Shown: positions 5,732-30,459 of the stretch, piece by piece
Position numbering within the stretch: position 1 is the first letter of the stretch
Layout of the letters: each line of letters begins with the position of its first letter
DNA from: a phage
Direction: 5' to 3' (one strand)
Sequence record: NC_129898.1
Length of the DNA stretch: 64,000 nt
Made by a program: the position numbers and the translations under genes
Notes under the pieces: generated by a model
The model's input: only the letters and a program-made list of their open reading frames with translations
What the model was told of the DNA's origin: nothing
Database searches by the model: none

Positions 5732-8155
5732 ATGAGTATGTGGTCTTTCGATCTGGAGGCCTCTGGCTTGCTGGAAGATCCAGATCTTTATTATCACTGC
5801 GGTTTGTTTAAAGAGCTGAATAAGAACCGTTTTATGCTGTTCCTTCCTCTAAATGACCGCACACACTACTCGGAAGAGGATGTAGAGAAGGCTAAGAACT
5901 TTATTCTGGCAAAGAGAACTCTTTATAAAGATTTTGAGGTTCGCATAGCAGATTTTTCAGAGTTGGAAGGTTGGCTTACAGGCAACTCAGACTGGTCACC
6001 TACGGCTTTGAACTGTCATAACTGCTACAGCTATGACTTTATGCTGATGGAAAGATTATCCGGTGTTCATTTTGATATGTTCCGTGATCCTAAATGTATG
6101 GGGACTATTAACGACCACCAGGTTAATCTGTTTGATACGTTGGCGATGAGTCGAATCTTGTGGCCTGACCGCCCTTTGCCAAAAGGTTGTCCGGACGCAG
6201 TATTCAATCCAGTTACCAAGAAAATGCAGCCTGTTGGGCCTCATGGCCTTATGGCATGGGGCTATGCCCTTGGTAACCAGAAAGTTCAAATCGATGACTG
6301 GCGTGAGCTTCCGCTGTGGAAGTATGTGGATCGTGTGTTCGAGGACGTTATCATCCAGGAGTTGCTCTGGAAAGAGTTGGTAGCGGAATCAAAAGGTGTA
6401 TTCTACGGCAAATCTGACATGCAGAACTTTATGTATGACCCTGCCAAAGAGAAGCCTAAAGGATTCAAGAAGATTACCTGGAAGAATGCATTACGCCGAG
6501 GCATGCTGCAGCATTTCCTGATGGAGCTGCAGGCTCGACAGGGTGTGTATTTCGACATAGATGGGGCTATTGCTTTACGTGACCGCTGCGATGCGTGGAT
6601 GAAAGAGATCGCTGATCGTGTTGAACCACAACTTCCTTTAAAAGAGTTATCAATGTCTCAGCGGCCTAAGTTCCCTGAAAAGCCGTTTAACCAGGATGGG
6701 ACAATCTCCAATAATGGTTGGAAATGGTTAAAAGACAAGCTTGGCTATCCTGTGGATATGAGCGCTTTAGAGTTCAAAGCTCCTCCTAAGCGAGCATTTA
6801 CCTCCACAGGGGATGTCAGTAAAATGGGGATAAAATGGTGTGAAGAGATGGGCTGTAAAGACCCAGATAAGATGGCTGATTTCTTGAGAGGGTATATCAA
6901 AGGAACTTCTACACCACACCCTTTACCTAAAGAGCTAATGGATCAGGCAATAAGTGACCTACAGCAGAAGCGAATGCCTGACTGCAAGATACCTATGAAA
7001 ATCAGCAATCAGGACGACATCAAGCGATACCTGATCAGTGCTGGTTGGCTCCCAACAATGTGGAGAACTAAGGATGTAACTAAAGACAGCAAGAAGAAAG
7101 CTCTGCCTGATGCTGATGTTGATGCACGAGTATATGCATATATGGACGAGCTTTTAGAGTCAGAGTATTGTGACCTAATTATCAACTTCTGGAACAAAAC
7201 TGATGCTAAGTTTCAGACAACCGTGCACAAGTTCCGAAGCTTCCCTAACTCAGAAAGGATTAAAAAGGAAGTGTTTGGGAAGATACGTAGAAAAGCCAGA
7301 GCGCTTATTACTTCTCCGCAACTGAAAGATACGTTTGGACACCTATGTCCGAATCTTGAAAAGTTGAACGGAGAGATGGCTAAAGATATCGTCTTGTGGT
7401 TATCCTTGCGAAACCGTAGATCGGTCCTTGATCCAATCAAGGAGGATAAGGTTGATACTGGTCTTCTTAATCATCCACGTTTGAAGATTGACCATAAGCT
7501 TCCTGCTAAAAGTTCTGGATTAACAAACACTTCCAGACAGAAACACAGCATTTGTGCAAACATGCCTAAACCATCTCCTAAAGTGGTTATGGGTAAAGAG
7601 ATGCGTAGTCTGTGGGGTGTTCCTCCAGGATACTTTGAGATCGGTATTGACGGGTCCAACTTAGAGCAGCTTATCGGGGCTTGGGGTGCCTTTGAGTTCG
7701 ACAACGGCCTGTACTATGATGTTGTAAGTAACGGGGACGCGCACCAAAACAATGCTGAGGCATATACAAAGGTAGCAGGTAGGGAGGTGTCTCGTAACGA
7801 TGGTAAACCTATCACGTATGGGGTTATGTATGGGGCACAAAAAGATAAAGTTGCAGATATGCTGGATATCTCTCCAGAGCTGGGGCAGAGAGTAATCGAT
7901 GCTCTCTGGGATGCCAACCCAGGCCTTAAGGGGCGTAAAGAGGATCTGGAGAAATTCTGGGAAGCAACAGGTAAGAAATTTATCTACTCTTTTGACGGTC
8001 ATGCCATTTGGACCCGCTCTAAACACTCTTTGCTTAATGCATATCAGCAAAATGGCGGTGCATCGTTGTGCGACTTGGTCGGAATCCTCATGCACCACCA
8101 AATGGTGAAGCGTGGATGGTATGATGAGGGTGTTCGTCGTATTATTTATTACCAT
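5732..8155 (+). CDS. DNA polymerase, family A (T7-like), exon 1
   Basis: FDLEASGL exo motif; GIDGSNLEQL (motif A) and RNDGKPITYGVMYG (motif B) align to T7 gp5; frame stops just before expected motif C. Confidence 0.85.
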
Positions 8156-8483
8156 AAATAACATTGTGGCTTCGTGCAGTGATGCACGTCGAAAACCTCT
8201 TTAATTGACGGGAAGGCTAAGTTGACTTTTACACCTAAACATGGTAAAAGCTCAATATGCTAATCCGCAGCGAAGCATCCGAGAGGATGAACGTTCAGAG
8301 ACTATCGAAAGCATAGCTCCAACACAGTTTGGGGTGAAGAAGCGAGTAGAGTAGGCCAGCAAGTGCGGTCGAAATGAGAGGTGCCTTGGTAACAAGGCAG
8401 TGAGATAGTCCGATCCATACGGGAAACTGTATGGCTATGCACGTAATGGTGCGGGGTAGCTTAACGACCTACCTGAACTATTG
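8156..8483 (+). ncRNA. group I self-splicing intron (ORF-less) in DNA polymerase gene
   Basis: 328 nt break between YYH and DEYQ; exon ends in U, intron ends in G; UUGUGG guide can pair CCAU|AA; P7-like CAGAGACUA (8296-8304) and UAGUCC (8406-8411). Confidence 0.65.
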
Positions 8484-9395: not shown

Positions 9396-9586
9396 AAGTA
9401 AAGTATCTGGCTGAAGGTATGAGTAGGTATTTTACCCTTGGAGAAGAGTATTGGCCCTTTACGGAAAATGGAGATGTATACGTGAAGGATGACCAAGGTG
9501 TGCCGTGGTTTCTGCACCATAATGGGTTGGGGTATTCCATCTACTGCGGTGCAGTGAACAACACAACCCTTGCAGAGTTTGTCTAG
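9392..9586 (+). CDS. hypothetical small protein (KDDxG...W family)
   Basis: Start overlaps upstream stop; VKDDQGVPWFL motif; MKVK N-terminus. Confidence 0.5.
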   Translation: MKVKYLAEGMSRYFTLGEEYWPFTENGDVYVKDDQGVPWFLHHNGLGYSIYCGAVNNTTLAEFV

Positions 9587-17116: not shown

Positions 17117-17454
17117 CAGAGATCATCATTTCAACTGCAGGGTATGTATTCCTGACAATCATTGCGCTGATCATCTTGGTGGTGGTGTATGGATTTGTTA
17201 TCCTGCCTATTCTTGAGACATTTAGTTTGTGTCGGTGTTGGAGAAAGGCTTACGGACCACAGCCGTGGAAAGACTGGCCTCATCTGTTACGCATAGCGTT
17301 CTCCTATGCCTATGATCACTCCAGCAGTGCATGCATAACTGGGTACCACGCCCACAATTGGAACTGGGAAGGGTTGGGGAGATGGAATGTTACAAAGACT
17401 ATACCTCTACGCATGTACAAAGGAAAAGGTGGGATTGATGGGAATACCTGTTAA
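17113..17454 (+). CDS. hypothetical membrane protein
   Basis: Hydrophobic N-terminal segment (TM helix). Confidence 0.45.
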   Translation: MTEIIISTAGYVFLTIIALIILVVVYGFVILPILETFSLCRCWRKAYGPQPWKDWPHLLRIAFSYAYDHSSSACITGYHAHNWNWEGLGRWNVTKTIPLRMYKGKGGIDGNTC

Positions 17455-18082
17455 AGACAGAAAAGTATGTGGTCGTGGAGTAAACGATTTAAAAGACAAA
17501 GTCCCAATGTACCAATCTGTTAATGGTAAGAGAGTACCAGAACCCCACTATGCTACATGGAAAGCATTATTCCAGAGGTGCTACGGCGATAACTCAAAGT
17601 ACCATACAGGTTGTGAAGTTGTAGAAGATTGGTGGTTGTTCTCAGAATTCTGGAAATGGATGGATACACAAGAGTGGAAAAGAGACGCTAAGAAGTTCAC
17701 TCTTGACAAAGATCTGAAAATCCCTGGAAACAGAATATACTCCCCAGAAACATGCATGTTTGTTCCACCACAAATAAACACCCTATTTGGCATAAGACAG
17801 GCAGCACGAGGGGATTTACCTTTGGGTGTGACACTTAGAAAAGATGTAAACAAGTATCTCGTGCATTGTCATCGAGATGGAAAAATTGTTCATGGCGGTC
17901 ATTTCGATGATCCACAGACAGCACACAAGGTGTGGCAAGAAATGAAACTTGAGGAGATGAAACTTCAGGCTATTAAAAACAAAGATGAGATTTGGCTGTT
18001 CGCCATTAAACGTGCAATAACTATCCTTGAGAATGATTTGAAAAATAATAAGGAGACTATAACATTGGTGAAATTTATTTAA
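17438..18082 (+). CDS. hypothetical protein, possible homing-endonuclease-associated DNA-binding protein
   Basis: HYATWKALFQRCYG...GCEVVEDWWLFSEFWKWM pattern recalled from phage HNH/AP2-type proteins; no catalytic motif identified. Confidence 0.4.
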   Translation: MGIPVKDRKVCGRGVNDLKDKVPMYQSVNGKRVPEPHYATWKALFQRCYGDNSKYHTGCEVVEDWWLFSEFWKWMDTQEWKRDAKKFTLDKDLKIPGNRIYSPETCMFVPPQINTLFGIRQAARGDLPLGVTLRKDVNKYLVHCHRDGKIVHGGHFDDPQTAHKVWQEMKLEEMKLQAIKNKDEIWLFAIKRAITILENDLKNNKETITLVKFI

Positions 18083-18410
18083 GATATTTATGGTAGTATT
18101 TATTTTAAAATTATAAAAATTTTAGGCGATGAGGGAAAATATGTAATGGATTTTCCCTTATTTATCAGATATTTGCAGATATTTGGAAATCCTTAGAAAA
18201 TCAGAAAATGGATCGAAAACTAAAATGGATTTTTTCAAGACAGGCACGATAAGCTGCGCTGCTCATTCTATCGTTCGCACCGTACTTCAAATCACCATTC
18301 CAGATTTTCCGCACATACTCTCACCCCTCTGCCAGAACTTTCCCAACTTACCTTCAGCCTTTTATGACAATAAGTTAATTATTATCAGTAAGTTTTGATA
18401 CATCTCTCTC

Positions 18411-18590
18411 AGTACTCGATCTGTTTTTCATTTCAAAGATTGGATTTTCTGAAAATTTTTCTCGATAAATTTTTCGGTACTCGATCTGTTTTTCGTTTTC
18501 TGAATCGGATTTTCTTGAAATTGGTCCAGCACCAGATCTAAAATTTTTGGGAACGAAAGCGATTTTTCGTTTTCAGAAATGGATTTTTAA
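18411..18590 (+). repeat. tandem imperfect direct repeats (about 60-70 bp period, 3 copies)
   Basis: GTACTCGATCTGTTTTTC[A/G]TTTC...GGATTTTCT at 18411 and 18477, diverged copy at about 18559. Confidence 0.6.
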
Positions 18591-18733
18591 AATTTCTATA
18601 TGGGAATATTTTATGAGGTATTATTTTATATAGAATTGTCACGGTAGGTAATTAGCATGCTAACTAAATTTATGAAATGCGAAAAGTTCTCATTTAGAAT
18701 TTTGAATGATAATCATTCTCGTTTGCAGAATAA

Positions 18734-18758
18734 CGGGCACCCCCGGTGATTGTCTCCC
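18734..18758 (+). repeat. 25-bp element CGGGCACCCCCGGTGATTGTCTCCC
   Basis: Near-copy at 18875-18894; exact inverted copy at 27133-27158. Confidence 0.6.
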
Positions 18759-19064
18759 GGCCCCTACTGCCCCGGCTTGTTATTATAGTATCACACAGGA
18801 CAAAGAAAGCAAGAAGTTTTTGCATAAATTTTTAGACGATAATGATAATCGTTCTCATTTCATGCAGCGCCCATCCCCGGTGGTTGTCTCCCCCGTCACC
18901 GGTGCCTGCCGTCCTTTCGATATGTATATTGTGCCACCTGGCGGGGCCGCTGTCAACACTTTTCAAAAAAATTCTAACCTGATGCGCTAACCGTTGCAAC
19001 CTGGCGGGGCCAGCCTGGTGGGCCTATGCTATAGGATAGTAACAATTGAAGAGGAGGTACAAAA

Positions 19065-19181
19065 ATGGAAGGTAATATGATCCCCCTGGAAAATGTAGCT
19101 ATTAATGACGCTGAGGCTATCGCCCTGGTTGAAAAGGCTATGGCGGGAGCGTTGGAACATAAAGAAGAGTACGAAAAATGA
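19065..19181 (+). CDS. hypothetical small protein (38 aa)
   Basis: GAGGAGG RBS before ATG; below ORF-track length cutoff. Confidence 0.4.
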   Translation: MEGNMIPLENVAINDAEAIALVEKAMAGALEHKEEYEK

Positions 19182-19243
19182 CGGTTAACCTGGCAGGGGC
19201 GGCGGCTGGGGAATTTTGCCCAAAAAATAATTTTAACTAGTGG

Positions 19244-19272
19244 TTGACAGCTCGGACAGTTTTTGTTATTCT
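19244..19272 (+). promoter_or_regulatory. sigma70-like promoter
   Basis: TTGACA - 17 nt - TATTCT upstream of ORF 19326. Confidence 0.5.
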
Positions 19273-19325
19273 TATCCTCGCAAGGTGAACAACACCACAC
19301 TAATTAACAGAGAGGATAAAAAATC

Positions 19326-19523
19326 ATGAACGCCTACGGAATCAAAGTACGTCGCAGCACTCGCCAGGTGGTCACCGATCAAATGATTTGCCAGGTGGAT
19401 GTGACCATCAACAACGGGCAAGGCCTTTATAAATTCCGTCGCGGTCAGAGCTATACCCGGCAACAGCTTAATCGTTGCGCCCTGACAAAAGGCCAGATCA
19501 ACCACTGGTTTAATAAAAAATAA
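19326..19523 (+). CDS. hypothetical small protein
   Basis: Promoter and GAGAGGA RBS upstream. Confidence 0.5.
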   Translation: MNAYGIKVRRSTRQVVTDQMICQVDVTINNGQGLYKFRRGQSYTRQQLNRCALTKGQINHWFNKK

Positions 19524-25715: not shown

Positions 25716-25778
25716 GCCTGGCGGGGCCGAAAAAGGCCCCTCCTGAAAATATGAAAAAATAAAGATAGGTGAATCATC

Positions 25779-26927: not shown

Positions 26928-27062
26928 ATGAGAAAGATAATTATTACCATGGGGATCGTGGCGGCAATGTTGGCGATCTTTCCCTTTATGGTTAGGTATG
27001 TGCTGATCAGTGTTGTCCTGATAGGCAGTGATCTATTGGAAACGGTTGGCAACTGGTTTTAA
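26928..27062 (+). CDS. hypothetical small membrane peptide (44 aa)
   Basis: Hairpin GGCGGCGGTGACCGCC, leader, AGAGAA RBS; hydrophobic. Confidence 0.35.
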   Translation: MRKIIITMGIVAAMLAIFPFMVRYVLISVVLIGSDLLETVGNWF

Positions 27063-27132
27063 GATAATAAACAGGGCTTGAAATGGTCCTGTTTTTTGTT
27101 ATACTTATCTCACGGGTGGCACCTGGCGACGG

Positions 27133-27158
27133 GGGGAGACAATCACCGGGGGTGCCCG
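27133..27158 (-). repeat. inverted copy of the 25-bp element at 18734
   Basis: GGGGAGACAATCACCGGGGGTGCCCG is the reverse complement of the 18734-18758 element. Confidence 0.6.
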
Positions 27159-27265
27159 TTATATAAAAAACTATAAAAACAGTTGACATCTGCCAGGTGG
27201 TTAGGTAACATTTATCTTGAAGGGGCAAAAGTGCCCACACAACAACCGGAAGAGAGGAAAACATT

Positions 27266-27538
27266 ATGTCAAGCTGGATTAATCAAGAAATCGAATCACG
27301 TTTTAATGCTATTTGGGATCTCATCGAAAAAGAGGACGGAACATCAAGCCCTTATCTCAATAACCTGGAATTTCATTTTGTGGAAGCGATGAACGCAGAA
27401 CATGATCACGAAGGTGGCGCGGATGAGTTCGCTCAAGGGTATGGCTTCAACAATGCCAACGAAATGATTGAGGCGGTTGTACTTCAGGCTGAGGAAGATT
27501 ATCAATTAAAAACACTTGAATTTTGCCGCCGTAAGTAA
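27266..27538 (+). CDS. hypothetical acidic small protein
   Basis: Promoter TTGACA 27184, hairpin GGGGCAAAAGTGCCC, leader, AGAGAGGA RBS. Confidence 0.5.
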   Translation: MSSWINQEIESRFNAIWDLIEKEDGTSSPYLNNLEFHFVEAMNAEHDHEGGADEFAQGYGFNNANEMIEAVVLQAEEDYQLKTLEFCRRK

Positions 27539-27906: not shown

Positions 27907-28511
27907 TTCTCTTTTCCTACCATAAACGGCCCCGCCTGGCAAGTGGAATAATTAACGAGCCATCAATCCCGCACACTGTACAAATATACATGTAAAATAG
28001 TTATTGCATAACCTTTCATTGTGTGGTAGCGGTGCTATTTTTACCTGTTTTCTCTCCCAAAATTGCACGTAATGCAGCTATTGCACAAAATTTAACCTGA
28101 TGCACATCTTCAGTATACTGTCAACAATTAAAAACCCTTATAAGTCATACACTTACACAAACCAAAAAGCGCGTCCTACGTGAAAAATCGGGTGTAACTA
28201 TAGCCGACAGATCTCAGAATCCACGTACGATCACCATTCTATAGCCTGCAAAGTATTTATTCCAACCACAGAATAACGGAATAGTCAATACCTGTACAAA
28301 ATAATTATTCGTACAAACTGCATAACATAAACCTGCCCAGGTGTCAACATTTTTCGTAAACAGTTAGAAATTGTCACGATAGGTTACTATAATCAGAGAA
28401 ATATTTAGTCGTCTAATGTTTACTGTACATAACTATACTGACTGGAATCATTAGATGACTAAGAGAAAGATAAGAAATAGTTAACAATGTAATTGTTTTA
28501 CCTGTAACAAT

Positions 28512-28688
28512 AAGGCAACTATGCAAACGAATGGCATGGCGCGACGGAGTCGCGACATAATATAAAAGCAGTAACAATCACCCCCGTGATAGTTTGTCTG
28601 CAATCTATTAATCAGATCATAGTTGCCTTGTATTTAGTTAATCATGACATAACAAGCAAGGCAACTATAGATCTTCTAATAGTTGCCC
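28512..28688. repeat. paired inverted repeats AAGGCAACTAT / ATAGTTGCC
   Basis: AAGGCAACTAT at 28512 and 28658; reverse complement at 28619 and 28679; palindrome GCGAC-GGA-GTCGC at 28541. Confidence 0.6.
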
Positions 28689-28761
28689 TGCTTTTATATT
28701 ATGTCATAGAAACGCCCGAAGGGGTGACCTAGTCACCTGGCATAGCCAGCGAAATATTATT

Positions 28762-28821
28762 AACTTGTTAATTGTCAGCTTGTTGGCTGTTAGCTTGTCA
28801 ATTGTTAACTTGCTAATTGTT
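28762..28821. repeat. tandem 15-bp repeats (4 units)
   Basis: CTTGTTAATTGTCAG / CTTGTTGGCTGTTAG / CTTGTCAATTGTTAA / CTTGCTAATTGTTAA, contiguous. Confidence 0.65.
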
Positions 28822-30459
28822 AAACTCGGGAGCATAGCCCTCGTCTCAAGGGTGTTATCATGCAAACGAATGTCATGGCTTATCATCTATGCGTAAACTG
28901 TCAGGGTGTAGACTATTCAGGCGTAAACAGTCTATGCGGGAACAATCTATACGTGAACAGTGAAATATGAAATAATAACAGTCGTTATTGTATCGAAAGT
29001 GTATAAGGTGTCAGATTATGGCATATTGTGTGACATTGTGTCAGACAAGTTTTTCTCCTCTTTGTCAAGTGCTGCATGGAAAATTTACAATCTGGTATGG
29101 TAGCATTTTTGCGGCCCTGTTTACATTCAGGAGTGTATGTATAACCCTTGTTGTGTGGGCGTTTAGACGTCTGGACGGTCAGAAGTCTGCAGGTTAATAT
29201 CTAATCTATTGGTCGCTAACTATATCCCCCACAAATAATAAGAAATGCAATTGTTATATGCGTAAACAGTAACTCATGTTATCAATCCCTGTATGTATCG
29301 CCAGTGGTGCGCATAATGGGTATTATGTTAAATTGCCCGTAATGATAACAGTTCTCACAATGATAGGTATTCTCATTCACCCCCACAAAATAGATTGCAA
29401 ATGTTGTGCCACTGTGTGAACGGCCTCGCCTATTAATTTGCCTCACTGCTCCGATATTTGAGAATTGTTATAAGAATGAGAAGTATTCCCATTTCGTCCG
29501 CCTGGCAGCGCTCCTGTAGGTCAGGTCAAAATCGTGGTAGAACTGGACCCCTTCAGATATTTCTAGCTGACTCTTCAGGCCTGTGTGGGAAAAGCCAACC
29601 TCTCCGGCGGGGCAGGGGGGTCAATTAAAAAATTTACGTAGGGTACGAAGCGCTCTTCAGGTAAGGCATGTATTAGAGGATGAAACCCTCTTCAGGTGAT
29701 GATATTTGTGGGTGTGATATTTGCTGGAAAGCCAGATATGACGGGACTACCGGCGGGGATGGGGTAGTATAGGCAGGGAAAATGTGGAGAATGTGGTTGG
29801 TAAATTTATCAGGCAGGTAGAGTATGGGATATGTTACAGGTATGTTAAATATGGAGGTAGGATATTTGTAAGATTTGTGTGTAAAATCAAAGACTTAAGT
29901 GGTGTTGTGGTATTTTCTATAAATAATTCAAGTTTAATAGGTAATATTTGTCTCTATCCACTTTGTGGGGTAAACAGATTCTAATTGAATTGGTTTACAA
30001 GTGTATATAAAGTATACAAATTAAAGATATAAGAAACCCCCCTCCCCCTTCGGCTACCATTCACCTTTTCCTCTGACTGGTACTTAAACACTTATTCAGA
30101 CTCTTCAGGTTATCACCCATATACTATATGGCAGTGACTGGTGTCCTCTGGCCCCTCTTTCGTCACCCGTCCGCTTCGCCATGCTAATGCCATAGCTAAA
30201 GGTTCGGTTGTTCACCCTGTTCACTCAGGTGTATCTCCATACCCCTTCAAACCGAAGAGAACAGAAAACCCGAATTACTCGGTAAAAGAAAAGAGAAGAA
30301 CTTAATTTTATCAGGATAGGCAAGAATGTCAAGGCATGACTGCTCACTAAACAAGCAAACAGTCATGTGTGGGAGGTAAGTGATTGTGGTGGTAGGAAAT
30401 TTAGTTGAAAGATGTGTTATAGGTGCTTCCAGCACTTTAGCCGGGCAGCTAATTGTGTG

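What the first reader, a model, noticed from the sequence alone, without database searches (positions are those of the whole stretch)
18100..19060. About 1 kb non-coding region with tandem and duplicated repeats
Three imperfect tandem copies of a 60-70 bp unit (18411, 18477, 18559), two direct copies of a 60 bp unit ending in the 25-bp element (18700-18760, 18836-18895), and AATTGTCACGGTAGGT, which recurs as AATTGTCACGATAGGT at 28371. The only ORF-track hit here (18706-18990) is a translation of the repeats.
Basis: seen in the sequence. Interest (0 to 1): 0.5.

Follow-up and report, generated by a model that had tools for sequence, protein, structure and literature searches.

The report
Conserved phage untranslated region with Fur boxes
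This 1-kb gap in an rV5-like E. coli phage is a strongly conserved non-coding control region containing near-perfect binding sites for Fur, the host's iron-sensing repressor, and it resembles the untranslated repeat region that holds phage T5's DNA-injection stop signal.

Summary
The window is a Vequintavirus (rV5-like). Positions 18083-19064 carry no credible gene: ORFs annotated here differ between records, substitutions show no codon-position bias, indels break the frames, and the 94-aa ORF stops after 6-66 codons in other genera.

Most of the stretch is nevertheless more conserved than the neighbouring genes (77-93% invariant columns in 12 phages). Its layout recurs in Seunavirus and Mydovirus and partly in Phapecoctavirus: three AT-rich tandem units, a TTAGCATGCTAA palindrome, Fur-type palindromes, and a GC-rich element.

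The shared 20-mer AATGAKAATCATTCTCRTTT lies beside TonB-receptor, fur, feoB and siderophore genes in bacterial genomes. The window has 4 such sites with at most 2 mismatches, against 0.02 expected. Two are here and two are in the 459-bp terminal repeat.

The region lies 10.4-11.4 kb from the virion DNA end. That is about 8% of the genome, the same relative position as T5's Repeat Region 3 (injection stop signal), which I find also carries Fur boxes.

Best reading: a DNA-level regulatory and protein-binding region using host Fur. Fur binding, transcripts and function are untested. The small-RNA, replication-origin and injection-stop readings remain open.

The parts
18083..19064 (.). Untranslated control region as a whole. 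It runs from the stop of the inserted HNH gene to the RBS/ATG of the next small ORF. It may extend to 19325, because ORF 19065-19181 also looks non-coding.
   Evidence: Inconsistent or absent ORF annotation in relatives. No codon-position bias and frame-breaking indels. Local loss of the coding-strand G and A skew.
18178..18240 (.). Near-invariant AT-rich block with GAAAATC / ATGGATTTT motifs. The same motifs recur at 18146, 18440, 18506 and 18580.
   Evidence: 92% invariant columns in 12 phages, 27% GC. A similar 'gaaatggtttttgaaatgg' block is present in PVP-SE1, GAP31 and the Klebsiella phage.
18241..18400 (.). Variable, pyrimidine-rich spacer. It corresponds to rV5 'ORF199'.
   Evidence: Only 37-47% invariant columns. 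Variable columns fall 31/30/30 by codon position. There are 1-3 nt indels in several phages.
18402..18610 (+). Three tandem AT-rich units of about 65-74 bp: GGTACTCGATC..TTTTTCGTTTTC..GGATTTTCT..AAAATTTTT. Unit 3 contains an A/T-rich hairpin at 18543-18580. TCGATAAATT lies at 18462-18471.
   Evidence: the repeat finder D1/D2. 77-93% invariant columns. Three homologous units in Seunavirus, Mydovirus and L027, ending roughly 60-100 nt upstream of the main Fur box. Hairpin.
18634..18663 (.). AATTGTCACGGTAGGT (18634-18649), then the 12-bp palindrome TTAGCATGCTAA (18652-18663).
   Evidence: ATTAGCATGCTAAC matches ATTAGCAGGCTAAC next to the Fur box of T5-like phages at 13 of 14 positions (shuffle p about 0.0015).
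18676..18694 (.). Fur-like box 0: AATGCGAAAAGTTCTCATT, 3 mismatches of 18.
   Evidence: It is closer to the Fur-box consensus in other genera, e.g. GAATGAGAAGCATTCTCATTT.
18699..18724 (.). Fur box 1: AATGATAATCATTCTCGTT at 18705-18723, 1 mismatch of 18. A second overlapping register lies 6 bp upstream at 18699.
   Evidence: The 20-mer flanks Fur-regulon genes in bacteria. Six-base spacing of overlapping sites is typical of footprinted Fur clusters (PMC2189734).
18730..18775 (.). GC-rich element, copy 1. The conserved core is GGGCACCCCCGGTGATTGTCTCCC. It has hairpin potential GGGCA...TGCCC.
   Evidence: The fold is no better than shuffles (z +0.3 to +0.8).
18785..18812 (-). Weak leftward sigma70-like promoter: TTGCTT-16-TACTAT with TG.
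   Evidence: Read from the sequence. Stronger equivalents sit at the same offset (+42/+43 from the core) in Mydovirus, Seunavirus, L027, L114 and L260.
18835..18860 (.). Fur box 2: GATAATGATAATCGTTCTC, 17 of 19 to the classical consensus. AATGATAATCGTTCTCATT at 18841-18859 has 1 mismatch of 18. An overlapping register lies at 18835.
18866..18908 (.). GC-rich element, copy 2: CCCCGGTGGTTGTCTCCC core, with a CCGGTG...CACCGG hairpin.
   Evidence: Fold z -1.4 on the + strand and -1.9 on the - strand.
18928..18956 (-). Leftward sigma70 promoter TTGACA-17-CACAAT with TG, pointing into copy 2. On the + strand it overlaps the ACCTGGCGGGGCC motif at 18936-18948.
   Evidence: Among 12 phages it varies only at -10 position 3 (CACAAT, CAAAAT, CATAAT).
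18971..19011 (-). Second leftward promoter-like site TTGCAA-17-TAGAAT (18999 to 18971), plus a second ACCTGGCGGGGCC motif at 18999-19011. A 48-bp indel among relatives follows it.
18702..18731 (+). Candidate rightward promoter TTGAAT-18-CAGAAT with Fur box 1 in its spacer.
   Evidence: Read from the sequence and (found in PVP-SE1 and L027). The key -10 'A' is not conserved (CTGAAT, CGGAAT in other genera), so this is uncertain.

Best explanation
This is a conserved, untranslated control region of Vequintavirinae genomes. It works as DNA (protein-binding sites and promoters), not as a protein-coding stretch.

Its core is two tandem modules. Each has a high-affinity operator for the host iron repressor Fur, then a GC-rich 45-nt element, then a leftward sigma70-type promoter. 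To the left lie a third weaker Fur box, a TTAGCATGCTAA palindrome and three AT-rich 65-74-bp tandem units.

Proposed mechanism: in an iron-replete cell Fe2+-Fur dimers occupy 18676-18724 and 18835-18860. They either occlude the promoters that overlap them or block transcription that crosses them. Transcription through this boundary, between two blocks of small early genes, would then depend on host iron status. The AT-rich units would bind further architectural or phage proteins.

Shown: non-coding character, conservation, repeat anatomy, and that the 20-mer is a Fur-regulon operator sequence in bacteria.

Inferred: that Fur binds here during infection, which promoters fire, and what the consequence is.
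For: Identity: rV5-like phage, 96.7% to YP-6.

Non-coding:
- ORF calls differ between records, and pangalan and CM1 annotate none.
- Variable columns by codon position are 15/12/12 for ORF 18706-18990 and 31/30/30 for the ORF199 equivalent, with 1-2 nt indels.
- The frame stops after 6-66 codons in five other phages.
- No Pfam hit.
- Coding-strand skew is lost locally.

Selection: 18418-18957 has 77-93% invariant columns, against 25-72% in the flanking stretch to the right (19078-19317). Beyond the genus, 18676-18759 is the only part that BLAST finds across the whole window query, in Seunavirus, Mydovirus, Certrevirus and Phapecoctavirus (A1). A more sensitive comparison also finds the tandem units in three genera.

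Fur:
- 18838-18856 matches GATAATGATAATCATTATC at 17 of 19.
- Six sites have 3 or fewer mismatches in 64 kb against 0.32 expected. Four have 2 or fewer against 0.02 expected, and all four are in the two untranslated regions.
- Overlapping registers 6 bp apart match footprinted Fur clusters (PMC2189734).
- The 20-mer occurs in at least 120 bacterial loci across phyla. Flanking ORFs are enriched for TonB-receptor Plug (11), FUR (8), iron-type SBP (7), FeoB (6), Peripla_BP_2 (5) and Lys/Orn oxygenase (4) out of 148.

Promoters: TTGACA-17-CACAAT+TG at 18956 to 18928 varies only at -10 position 3. A leftward promoter sits at a fixed offset from the GC core in 6 of 10 lineages.
Against: No experiment shows Fur binding or any transcript here, and I found no transcriptome of a Vequintavirus.

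Promoter assignment around the Fur boxes is ambiguous. Both the rightward CAGAAT and the leftward TATTCT -10 candidates lose a key base in some genera.

The genes on either side have no known function and no visible link to iron, so a physiological reason for iron control is missing.

Fur boxes also lie in the terminal repeat, 9-27 nt from the virion DNA end, where promoter control is not an obvious role. This hints at a role other than transcription.

The tandem AT-rich units and the conserved GC core have no assigned binding partner.
Confidence: 0.55

Rival explanations
1. Counterpart of phage T5's injection stop signal (Repeat Region 3). A cis-acting DNA segment about 8% in from the entering end is loaded with abundant host DNA-binding proteins (here Fur). 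This pauses or organises DNA entry, or otherwise marks the end of a first-expressed terminal arm.
For: Virion end known from Gotham: a 459-bp DTR whose position 1 equals window 29502 (PMC7471380). The region therefore lies 10.4-11.4 kb in, which is 7.6-8.3% of 137 kb. T5's FST is 7.9% and its Repeat Region 3 is at 9.2-10.4 kb.

Both regions are about 1.2 kb, untranslated, repeat-rich and better conserved than the neighbouring ORFs.

T5 Repeat Region 3 contains 5 Fur-like sites, one matching 19 of 19. These are its 'direct repeat C' and palindromes E-I.

T5-like phages carry a collinear set of ATTAGCAGGCTAAC, a Fur box, then GGGGCAC..GTGATT hairpin at 8.9-9.4 kb of the left repeat. Its orientation relative to the nearest end is the same as here.

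An HNH gene is inserted at the border in both.

The whole arm of 20 small ORFs is of unknown function, as expected for host-takeover genes.
Against: There are no DnaA boxes and no LexA box in this region, although these are the features Davison stresses for T5.

The region is not inside a long terminal repeat.

No homologues of T5 A1, A2 or dmp were detected in the arm by PHROGs or Pfam.

Genes of the arm are transcribed towards the end, unlike the last T5 pre-early gene.

Similarity outside the Fur box is short (13 of 14 and 14 of 15 nt, p 0.0015 and 0.015). In Seunavirus and Mydovirus the position relative to the ends was not established.

Two-step injection has never been reported for rV5-like phages, as far as I could find.
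Confidence: 0.15
2. Two or three paralogous small-RNA genes. Each GC-rich element would be the body of a short transcript of about 50-100 nt. It would be made either rightward from a Fur-repressed promoter (an iron-responsive phage sRNA) or leftward from the promoters at 18956 and 18812.
For: There are three copies of the core, one of them (27110-27165) standing alone between a terminator and a promoter.

Promoters abut the element on the left-reading strand in most lineages.

Fur-box promoters driving sRNAs are a known design, for example RyhB (textbook knowledge).

Hairpin potential exists in every homologue. Copies 2 and 3 and the T5-like version fold somewhat better than shuffles (z -1.4 to -2.9).
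Against: No Rfam hit, even at E of 10 or less.

No intrinsic terminator follows any copy.

Copy 1 folds no better than shuffles (z +0.3 and +0.8).

RNAalifold on 13 diverse homologues finds only 3 consensus pairs and essentially no covariation.

What is conserved is a primary sequence (CGGTGWTTGTCTC), which is more typical of a protein site.

In T5-like phages and at copy 3 the element sits just after a gene end, like a terminator or 3' stabiliser rather than a separate gene.
Confidence: 0.15
3. Origin of DNA replication. The AT-rich tandem units would act as iterons for a phage initiator, with adjacent promoters providing transcriptional activation.
For: Three conserved tandem units lie in a 27% GC stretch with A/T tracts and GATC sites at 18418, 18483 and 18535. 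Their strong conservation across genera fits a cis-acting replication element. The origin of rV5 is unknown (PMC3606486).
Against: No DnaA boxes. The cumulative GC skew keeps rising through the region with no inflection. GATC is not enriched over the window average except locally. There are only three units, diverged to about 75%, and no initiator gene is adjacent.
Confidence: 0.08
4. Ordinary protein-coding genes, as annotated in rV5 (ORF199, ORF198) and other records.
For: ORFs of 57-94 aa exist. The 94-aa ORF matches phrog_14993 at E 6e-63. Several GenBank records annotate it.
Against: No codon-position bias and frame-breaking indels. The ATG lies inside a Fur box with no Shine-Dalgarno sequence. 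The frame stops early in other genera although the DNA is conserved. No Pfam domain. Annotation is inconsistent or absent.
Confidence: 0.03

Closest known systems
Fur operators (Fur boxes) of bacterial iron-regulated promoters, e.g. fhuF, fepA-fes, ryhB
   Same: A 19-bp palindrome matching the consensus at 17 of 19, with 1 mismatch of 18 to the AATGAKAAT-N-ATTMTCATT form. Overlapping registers are 6 bp apart and the sites are close to sigma70-like promoters. The identical 20-mer sits next to Fur-regulon genes in many bacteria.
   Different: The sites are in a strictly lytic phage, with no iron-related gene nearby. There are several per genome, including inside the terminal repeat next to the DNA end. 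Binding and regulation are untested.
Phage T5 Repeat Region 3, the injection stop signal region (Davison 2015; Davison 2020 preprint 10.1101/866236; Wang et al. 2005 annotation AY587007)
   Same: About 1.2 kb, untranslated, dense in direct and inverted repeats, and better conserved than the neighbouring ORFs. It lies about 8% of genome length from the left end. It contains Fur-type palindromes, and T5 relatives have a similar palindrome, Fur box and GC-hairpin set in the same orientation relative to the end.
   Different: T5 has 7-8 DnaA boxes, a LexA-like palindrome D and nine DRD repeats. It lies in a 10-kb terminal repeat and depends on A1/A2. None of these is found here. The AT-rich tandem units of Vequintavirinae have no T5 counterpart. 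The papers I read do not describe the T5 repeats as Fur boxes.
Fur-repressed small RNA genes (RyhB, PrrF, HrrF type)
   Same: A Fur box overlaps a possible promoter and is followed by a short GC-rich, hairpin-capable segment present in several paralogous copies.
   Different: No terminator, no conserved secondary structure, no Rfam match, and no sequence similarity to RyhB.
Iteron-type replication origins and P1-like pac sites with GATC-containing repeats
   Same: Tandem repeats with GATC in an AT-rich, bent-looking segment.
   Different: There are only three units, no DnaA boxes and no skew shift. The physical genome ends are 10 kb away at window 29044-29502.

Membership tests
Fur operator (Fur box) | Sequence match to the 19-bp consensus GATAATGATAATCATTATC, or 7-1-7 TGATAAT-N-ATTATCA | tested here: met
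   18838-18856 matches 17 of 19. 18705 and 18841 have 1 mismatch of 18 to AATGAKAATNATTMTCATT. Four sites with 2 or fewer mismatches against 0.02 expected.
Fur operator (Fur box) | Overlapping sites offset by 3 or 6 bp (clusters) | tested here: met
   Registers at 18699/18705 and 18835/18841. The criterion is from PMC2189734.
Fur operator (Fur box) | The same sequence marks Fur-regulon promoters in bacteria | tested here: met
   The 20-mer is in at least 120 bacterial loci. Flanking ORFs: Plug 11, FUR 8, FeoB 6, iron SBP 7, Peripla_BP_2 5, Lys_Orn_oxgnase 4 of 148. There was no matched control set of random intergenic neighbours.
Fur operator (Fur box) | Metal-dependent binding of Fur and iron-dependent regulation | not testable with these tools
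   Needs EMSA or footprinting, ChIP, and transcript analysis in a fur deletion or low iron.
T5-type injection stop region (Repeat Region 3) | Large untranslated repeat region, more conserved than the adjacent ORFs | tested here: met
   T5 description.
T5-type injection stop region (Repeat Region 3) | Position about 8% of genome length from the end that enters first | tested here: inconclusive
   The distance of 10.4-11.4 kb from Gotham position 1 is 7.6-8.3%. Which end enters first is unknown.
T5-type injection stop region (Repeat Region 3) | Paired DnaA boxes in inverted repeats (IRD'/IRC') | tested here: not met
   No TTWTNCACA anywhere in 18000-19400.
T5-type injection stop region (Repeat Region 3) | Located in a long terminal repeat together with A1/A2-type pre-early genes | tested here: not met
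   The DTR is 459 bp and lies elsewhere. The 20 arm ORFs match only unknown-function PHROGs and one Phage_1_1.
T5-type injection stop region (Repeat Region 3) | Two-step DNA transfer | not testable with these tools
   Needs an interrupted-injection experiment.
Bacterial/phage small regulatory RNA gene | Own promoter and intrinsic terminator | tested here: inconclusive
   Promoter-like sites are present on both strands. No terminator follows any copy.
Bacterial/phage small regulatory RNA gene | Conserved secondary structure with covariation | tested here: not met
   RNAalifold gives 3 pairs and a covariation term of -0.05. Copy 1 z-score is positive.
Bacterial/phage small regulatory RNA gene | Match to a described RNA family | tested here: not met
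   Rfam gathering and E of 10 or less: nothing relevant.
Protein-coding gene | Reading frame and codon-position pattern conserved among relatives | tested here: not met
Iteron-type replication origin | Iterons plus DnaA boxes/AT-rich unwinding element, with a skew switch | tested here: not met
   Three AT-rich units are present, but there are no DnaA boxes and no skew inflection.

The most novel reading that the evidence does not exclude
Arrays of consensus Fur operators are a shared, so far undescribed device of large lytic enterobacterial phages. They occur in T5-like Demerecviridae, rV5-like Vequintavirinae and phi92-like Stephanstirmvirinae, and the same palindrome turns up in many metagenomic viral contigs of unknown type. 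In the phages whose ends are known (T5, rV5-like) they sit at the DNA ends and about 8% inside. Their role would not be to regulate an iron gene. Instead they would recruit the abundant host Fur protein to incoming or replicating phage DNA. This could serve as part of a DNA-entry checkpoint (the long-unexplained T5 injection stop signal), as end protection, or as a titration sink that de-represses host iron uptake for phage-encoded iron enzymes.
Probability: 0.17. Interest if true: 0.85.

Novelty: new variant of a known kind. Interest (0 to 1): 0.6.

Why it matters
Databases currently hold this region as a string of 'hypothetical proteins'. Recognising it as a conserved cis-acting region would correct the annotation of more than 100 Vequintavirinae genomes, many of which are phage-therapy candidates.

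The Fur boxes give a concrete and cheap hypothesis: a strictly lytic phage reads, or manipulates, the host's iron status. That is relevant in the iron-starved gut and in infection sites.

The same palindromes in T5's injection-stop region supply a new candidate host factor for a 60-year-old open question: what stops T5 DNA at 8%. They also suggest that rV5-like phages may have a comparable terminal-arm organisation.

At least 120 metagenomic viral contigs carry the perfect palindrome, often in tandem and near contig ends. The phenomenon may therefore be general.

Tried and rejected
(1) tRNA. A Klebsiella phage record annotates 'tRNA-Met' exactly on the homologous Fur boxes. ARAGORN finds no tRNA in that locus, the window or five other loci. 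I treated it as an annotation error.

(2) Genome terminus at this region. The phiWec189 record begins at window 18860 and ends at 18713. These are equivalent points of the two Fur boxes, so this is an assembly break at the repeat. The true end is at window 29502.

(3) Rfam, in gathering and permissive modes: nothing relevant.

(4) Consensus RNA structure of the GC element: no support.

(5) Pfam on all local ORFs: nothing. My searches failed because of off-by-one coordinates.

(6) DnaA, LexA and CRP boxes in the region: none.

(7) GATC enrichment as in P1 pac or oriR: only 3 sites in the tandem units, and the region overall is below the window average.

(8) GC-skew evidence for an origin: none.

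(9) T5 A1/A2/dmp homologues in the terminal arm: none seen with PHROGs or Pfam.

(10) Literature. I found no paper describing Fur boxes in lytic phage genomes or a Vequintavirus transcriptome in the searchable library. This is an absence in that library only.

(11) A pattern scan for the full Fur-plus-GC element in IMG/VR gave only 12 loci, too few and too similar for strong covariation statistics.
Full report
WHAT THE WINDOW IS. The 2.2 kb around the finding matches Escherichia phages of the genus Vequintavirus. It is 96.7% identical to YP-6 and 91.6% to rV5 over the shared part.

Only YP-6 and 241Ecol014PP share the left 780 nt of the query. That stretch is a 231-aa ORF (17387-18082) of the HNH homing-endonuclease family (phrog_953, E 5e-65), inserted exactly at the left border of the region of interest.

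In rV5 the region is annotated as ORF199, ORF198 and ORF197 plus predicted promoters.

CHECK OF THE OBSERVATION. The repeats are there.
- Three units of about 47-49 nt at 18402, 18467 and 18541, 74-80% identical, spaced 65 and 74 nt.
- Two direct copies made of a 20-mer (18705 and 18841, 90%) and a 21-mer (18738 and 18872, 90%).
- The 18-mer core of the "25-bp element" occurs three times in 64 kb against 0.02 expected. The third copy is at 27134-27151 on the other strand.
- AATTGTCACGGTAGGT recurs with one mismatch at 28369.

Tandem Repeats Finder misses the tandem units because they are too diverged.

CODING OR NOT. I aligned the region from 12 vequintaviruses.
- Annotated ORFs differ from record to record, and pangalan and CM1 annotate none.
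- Variable alignment columns are spread evenly over codon positions: 15/12/12 for ORF 18706-18990 and 31/30/30 for the ORF199 equivalent.
- One- and two-nucleotide indels occur in both.
- The 94-aa ORF starts at the ATG inside a Fur box. The same frame stops after 6, 7, 26, 26 and 66 codons in phages of other genera, although the DNA there is conserved.
- No Pfam domain is found.
- The match to phrog_14993 reflects DNA conservation within the genus.
- The coding-strand G and A skew that marks the flanking genes disappears locally.

I conclude that 18083-19064 is untranslated. The small ORF 19065-19181 behaves the same way, so the gap may reach 19325.

CONSERVATION PATTERN. The region is a mosaic.
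- 18178-18237 is 92% invariant.
- 18238-18417 is only 37-47% invariant.
- 18418-18957 is 77-93% invariant.
- The flanking stretch to the right (19078-19317) is 25-72% invariant.

Beyond the genus, BLAST finds only window 18669-18760, at 70-88% identity. It is found in Seunavirus (PVP-SE1, GAP31), Mydovirus (Klebsiella phages, Proteus Mydo), Certrevirus, Cronobacter phages and Phapecoctavirus.

A more sensitive local comparison shows that the three AT-rich tandem units are also present at the same relative place in PVP-SE1, GAP31, the Klebsiella phage and IMG/VR contig L027. The architecture is therefore old and under selection.

THE FUR BOXES. The segment conserved across genera centres on a 19-bp palindrome, AATGAKAAT-N-ATTCTCATT. 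It is a perfect palindrome in PVP-SE1. This is the Fur-box consensus with a G/T alternative in each half-site.
- 18838-18856 matches the classical GATAATGATAATCATTATC at 17 of 19.
- A scan of the window gives six sites with 3 or fewer mismatches of 18, against 0.32 expected from Markov-1 simulations. Four sites have 2 or fewer, against 0.02 expected.
- Those four are at 18705, 18841, 29359 and 29475.
- Overlapping registers six bases apart (18699/18705, 18835/18841) match what is seen in footprinted Fur clusters (PMC2189734).

To test independently of memory that this 20-mer is a Fur operator, I scanned one genome per bacterial species for AATGAKAATCATTCTCRTTT.

Of the 148 flanking divergent ORFs that I scanned (160 found), the commonest Pfam families were TonB-receptor Plug (11), FUR itself (8), iron-type solute-binding proteins (7), FeoB (6), siderophore-binding Peripla_BP_2 (5) and lysine/ornithine N-monooxygenase (4). 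That is the Fur regulon. I ran no matched control of random intergenic neighbours, so the enrichment is qualitative.

Among the 38 of the 80 listed contigs that were held in full, 12 have it within 300 nt of an end, against 3.3 expected.

THE REST OF THE MODULE.

To its right, on the opposite strand, lies a sigma70-type promoter pointing back into the element. For copy 2 it is TTGACA-17-CACAAT with TG at 18956 to 18928. Among 12 phages it varies only at the third -10 position.

A promoter at the same offset (+42/+43 from the core) is found in Mydovirus, Seunavirus, L027, L114 and L260. Copy 1 and Phapecoctavirus have weaker versions.

A rightward promoter with the Fur box in its spacer (TTGAAT-18-CAGAAT) is also possible, but its -10 'A' is not conserved.

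The third copy of the GC element (27110-27165) has no Fur box. It sits between a canonical terminator of a + strand gene and the promoter of the next gene.

IS THE GC ELEMENT AN RNA? Every homologue can form a hairpin.
- Copy 1 folds no better than shuffled sequence (z +0.3 and +0.8).
- Copies 2 and 3 are only mildly better (z -1.4 to -2.3).
- RNAalifold on 13 diverse homologues finds three consensus pairs and no covariation.
- Rfam finds nothing.
- No intrinsic terminator follows any copy.

A small RNA cannot be excluded, but a conserved primary-sequence site fits better.

POSITION IN THE GENOME AND THE T5 PARALLEL. Vequintaviruses have short direct terminal repeats. Gotham has 459 bp and a fixed packaging start (PMC7471380). 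A Klebsiella relative has 514 bp (PMC9862379).

Gotham's position 1 maps to window 29502 in reverse orientation, and its repeat maps to about 29044-29502. This has two consequences.
- The second untranslated, repeat-rich stretch of the window (28400-29800) holds the virion ends. Three Fur-like boxes lie in the terminal repeat, one of them 9-27 nt from the end.
- The region studied here lies 10.4-11.4 kb, or 7.6-8.3% of the genome, inside that end. It is separated from the end by about 20 small genes of unknown function.

Among the viral hits to the Fur palindrome were T5-like phages. There the site lies at 8.9-9.4 kb of the left terminal repeat. This is in the untranslated Repeat Region 3 that contains the T5 injection stop signal. 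Davison describes that region as 1.2 kb, packed with repeats and palindromes, and better conserved than the neighbouring ORFs (10.1101/866236).

In T5 itself the annotated 'direct repeat C' copies and palindromes E-I are Fur boxes by my scoring: five sites, one a 19 of 19 match. Palindrome D is a near-consensus LexA box. The Davison preprint does not mention Fur or LexA.

T5 relatives also show, next to the Fur box, ATTAGCAGGCTAAC (13 of 14 identical to 18651-18664, p about 0.0015). They show a GC hairpin containing GCGCCCCCGTGATT as well (compare GCACCCCCGGTGATT, p about 0.015). The order and the orientation relative to the nearest genome end are the same as here.

Against equivalence:
- no DnaA or LexA boxes here;
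- no long terminal repeat;
- no A1/A2/dmp homologues;
- the arm genes are transcribed towards the end.

INTERPRETATION. The best-supported statement is that this is a conserved cis-acting region whose most recognisable components are operators for host Fur, flanked by promoters (confidence 0.55). How Fur occupancy is used remains inference. It could be promoter occlusion, a transcriptional roadblock, a nucleoprotein barrier during DNA entry, end protection or Fur titration.

The T5-like reading is the most interesting alternative (0.15). The sRNA (0.15), origin (0.08) and coding (0.03) readings are less supported.

The AT-rich tandem units remain without an assigned partner. They are conserved as three copies in each of the Vequintavirinae genera examined (Vequintavirus, Seunavirus, Mydovirus). 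TCGATAAATT at 18462-18471 equals what I recall as the H-NS high-affinity motif. That is a lead from memory, not a test.

NOVELTY. Untranslated repeat regions in phages (T5) and Fur operators are both known. Their combination in lytic phage genomes appears not to be described in the literature I could search. Neither does its conservation across three phage lineages, or its position at the DNA end and about 8% inside it. I rate it a new variant of a known kind, with interest 0.6.

Noticed in passing
window 17387-18082 (+): A 231-aa ORF of the HNH homing-endonuclease family (phrog_953, E 5e-65; it matches only the C-terminal half of the profile). It is present in this phage, YP-6 and 241Ecol014PP but absent from rV5, FV3 and others. 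It is inserted exactly at the left edge of the untranslated region. T5 likewise has an HNH gene splitting two of its repeat regions.
   Followed up: partly
window 28400-29800: A second untranslated, repeat-rich region. It includes 15-bp tandem repeats at 28756-28823 and 28926-28959. It contains the virion DNA end (Gotham position 1 equals window 29502) and the 459-bp direct terminal repeat (about 29044-29502). Fur-like boxes lie at 29341, 29359 and 29475.
   Followed up: partly
window 27055-27215: A third copy of the GC-rich element (27110-27165, opposite orientation), without a Fur box. It is wedged between a canonical terminator (27070-27100, + strand) and the promoter TTGACA-17-TAACAT of the gene starting at 27266.
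   Followed up: partly
L258 (T5 AY587007 9330-9640): T5's annotated palindrome D (tactgtataaatatacagta) is a near-consensus LexA/SOS box. Its 'direct repeat C' and palindromes E-I are Fur boxes, with a 19 of 19 match at 9577. The T5 injection-stop preprint I read names neither.
   Followed up: partly
IMG/VR loci L008-L127: The perfect Fur palindrome occurs in at least 120 viral contigs from many environments, often just downstream of TTGACA...TATAAT promoters or in tandem arrays (for example L084, three copies 30 bp apart). It lies within 300 nt of a contig end 12 times out of 38, against 3.3 expected.
   Followed up: partly
window 19065-19181 (+): A small ORF (rV5 ORF197, phrog_21957) with a strong Shine-Dalgarno sequence. 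Among 12 phages it has 1-nt indels, a 33-nt deletion and no codon-position bias, so it is doubtful as a gene.
   Followed up: partly
window 18936-18948, 18999-19011, 19188-19200, 25716-25728, 27928-27940: The motif ACCTGGCGGGGCC occurs 5 times against 0.37 expected. It usually overlaps or adjoins a TTGACA -35 box on the opposite strand. It may be a promoter-associated element specific to these phages.
   Followed up: no
window 8146-8433 (+): A group I catalytic intron (RF00028, 75.6 bits, E 2e-17).
   Followed up: no
L004 1504-1657 (Klebsiella phage vB_Kpn_K45PH128C2): The record annotates tRNA-Met and tRNA-Ile directly over the Fur boxes and the GC element. ARAGORN finds no tRNA in the locus, so the annotation is probably misplaced.
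   Followed up: yes
window 18462-18471: TCGATAAATT is invariant in all 12 vequintaviruses. It equals the H-NS high-affinity nucleation motif as I remember it. I did not check this against a source.
   Followed up: no
L137/L266 (phiWec189 LC739538): The record starts at window 18860 and ends at 18713. These are equivalent points of the two Fur boxes, giving a 148-bp redundancy that looks like an assembly break at the repeat rather than a real terminus.
   Followed up: yes
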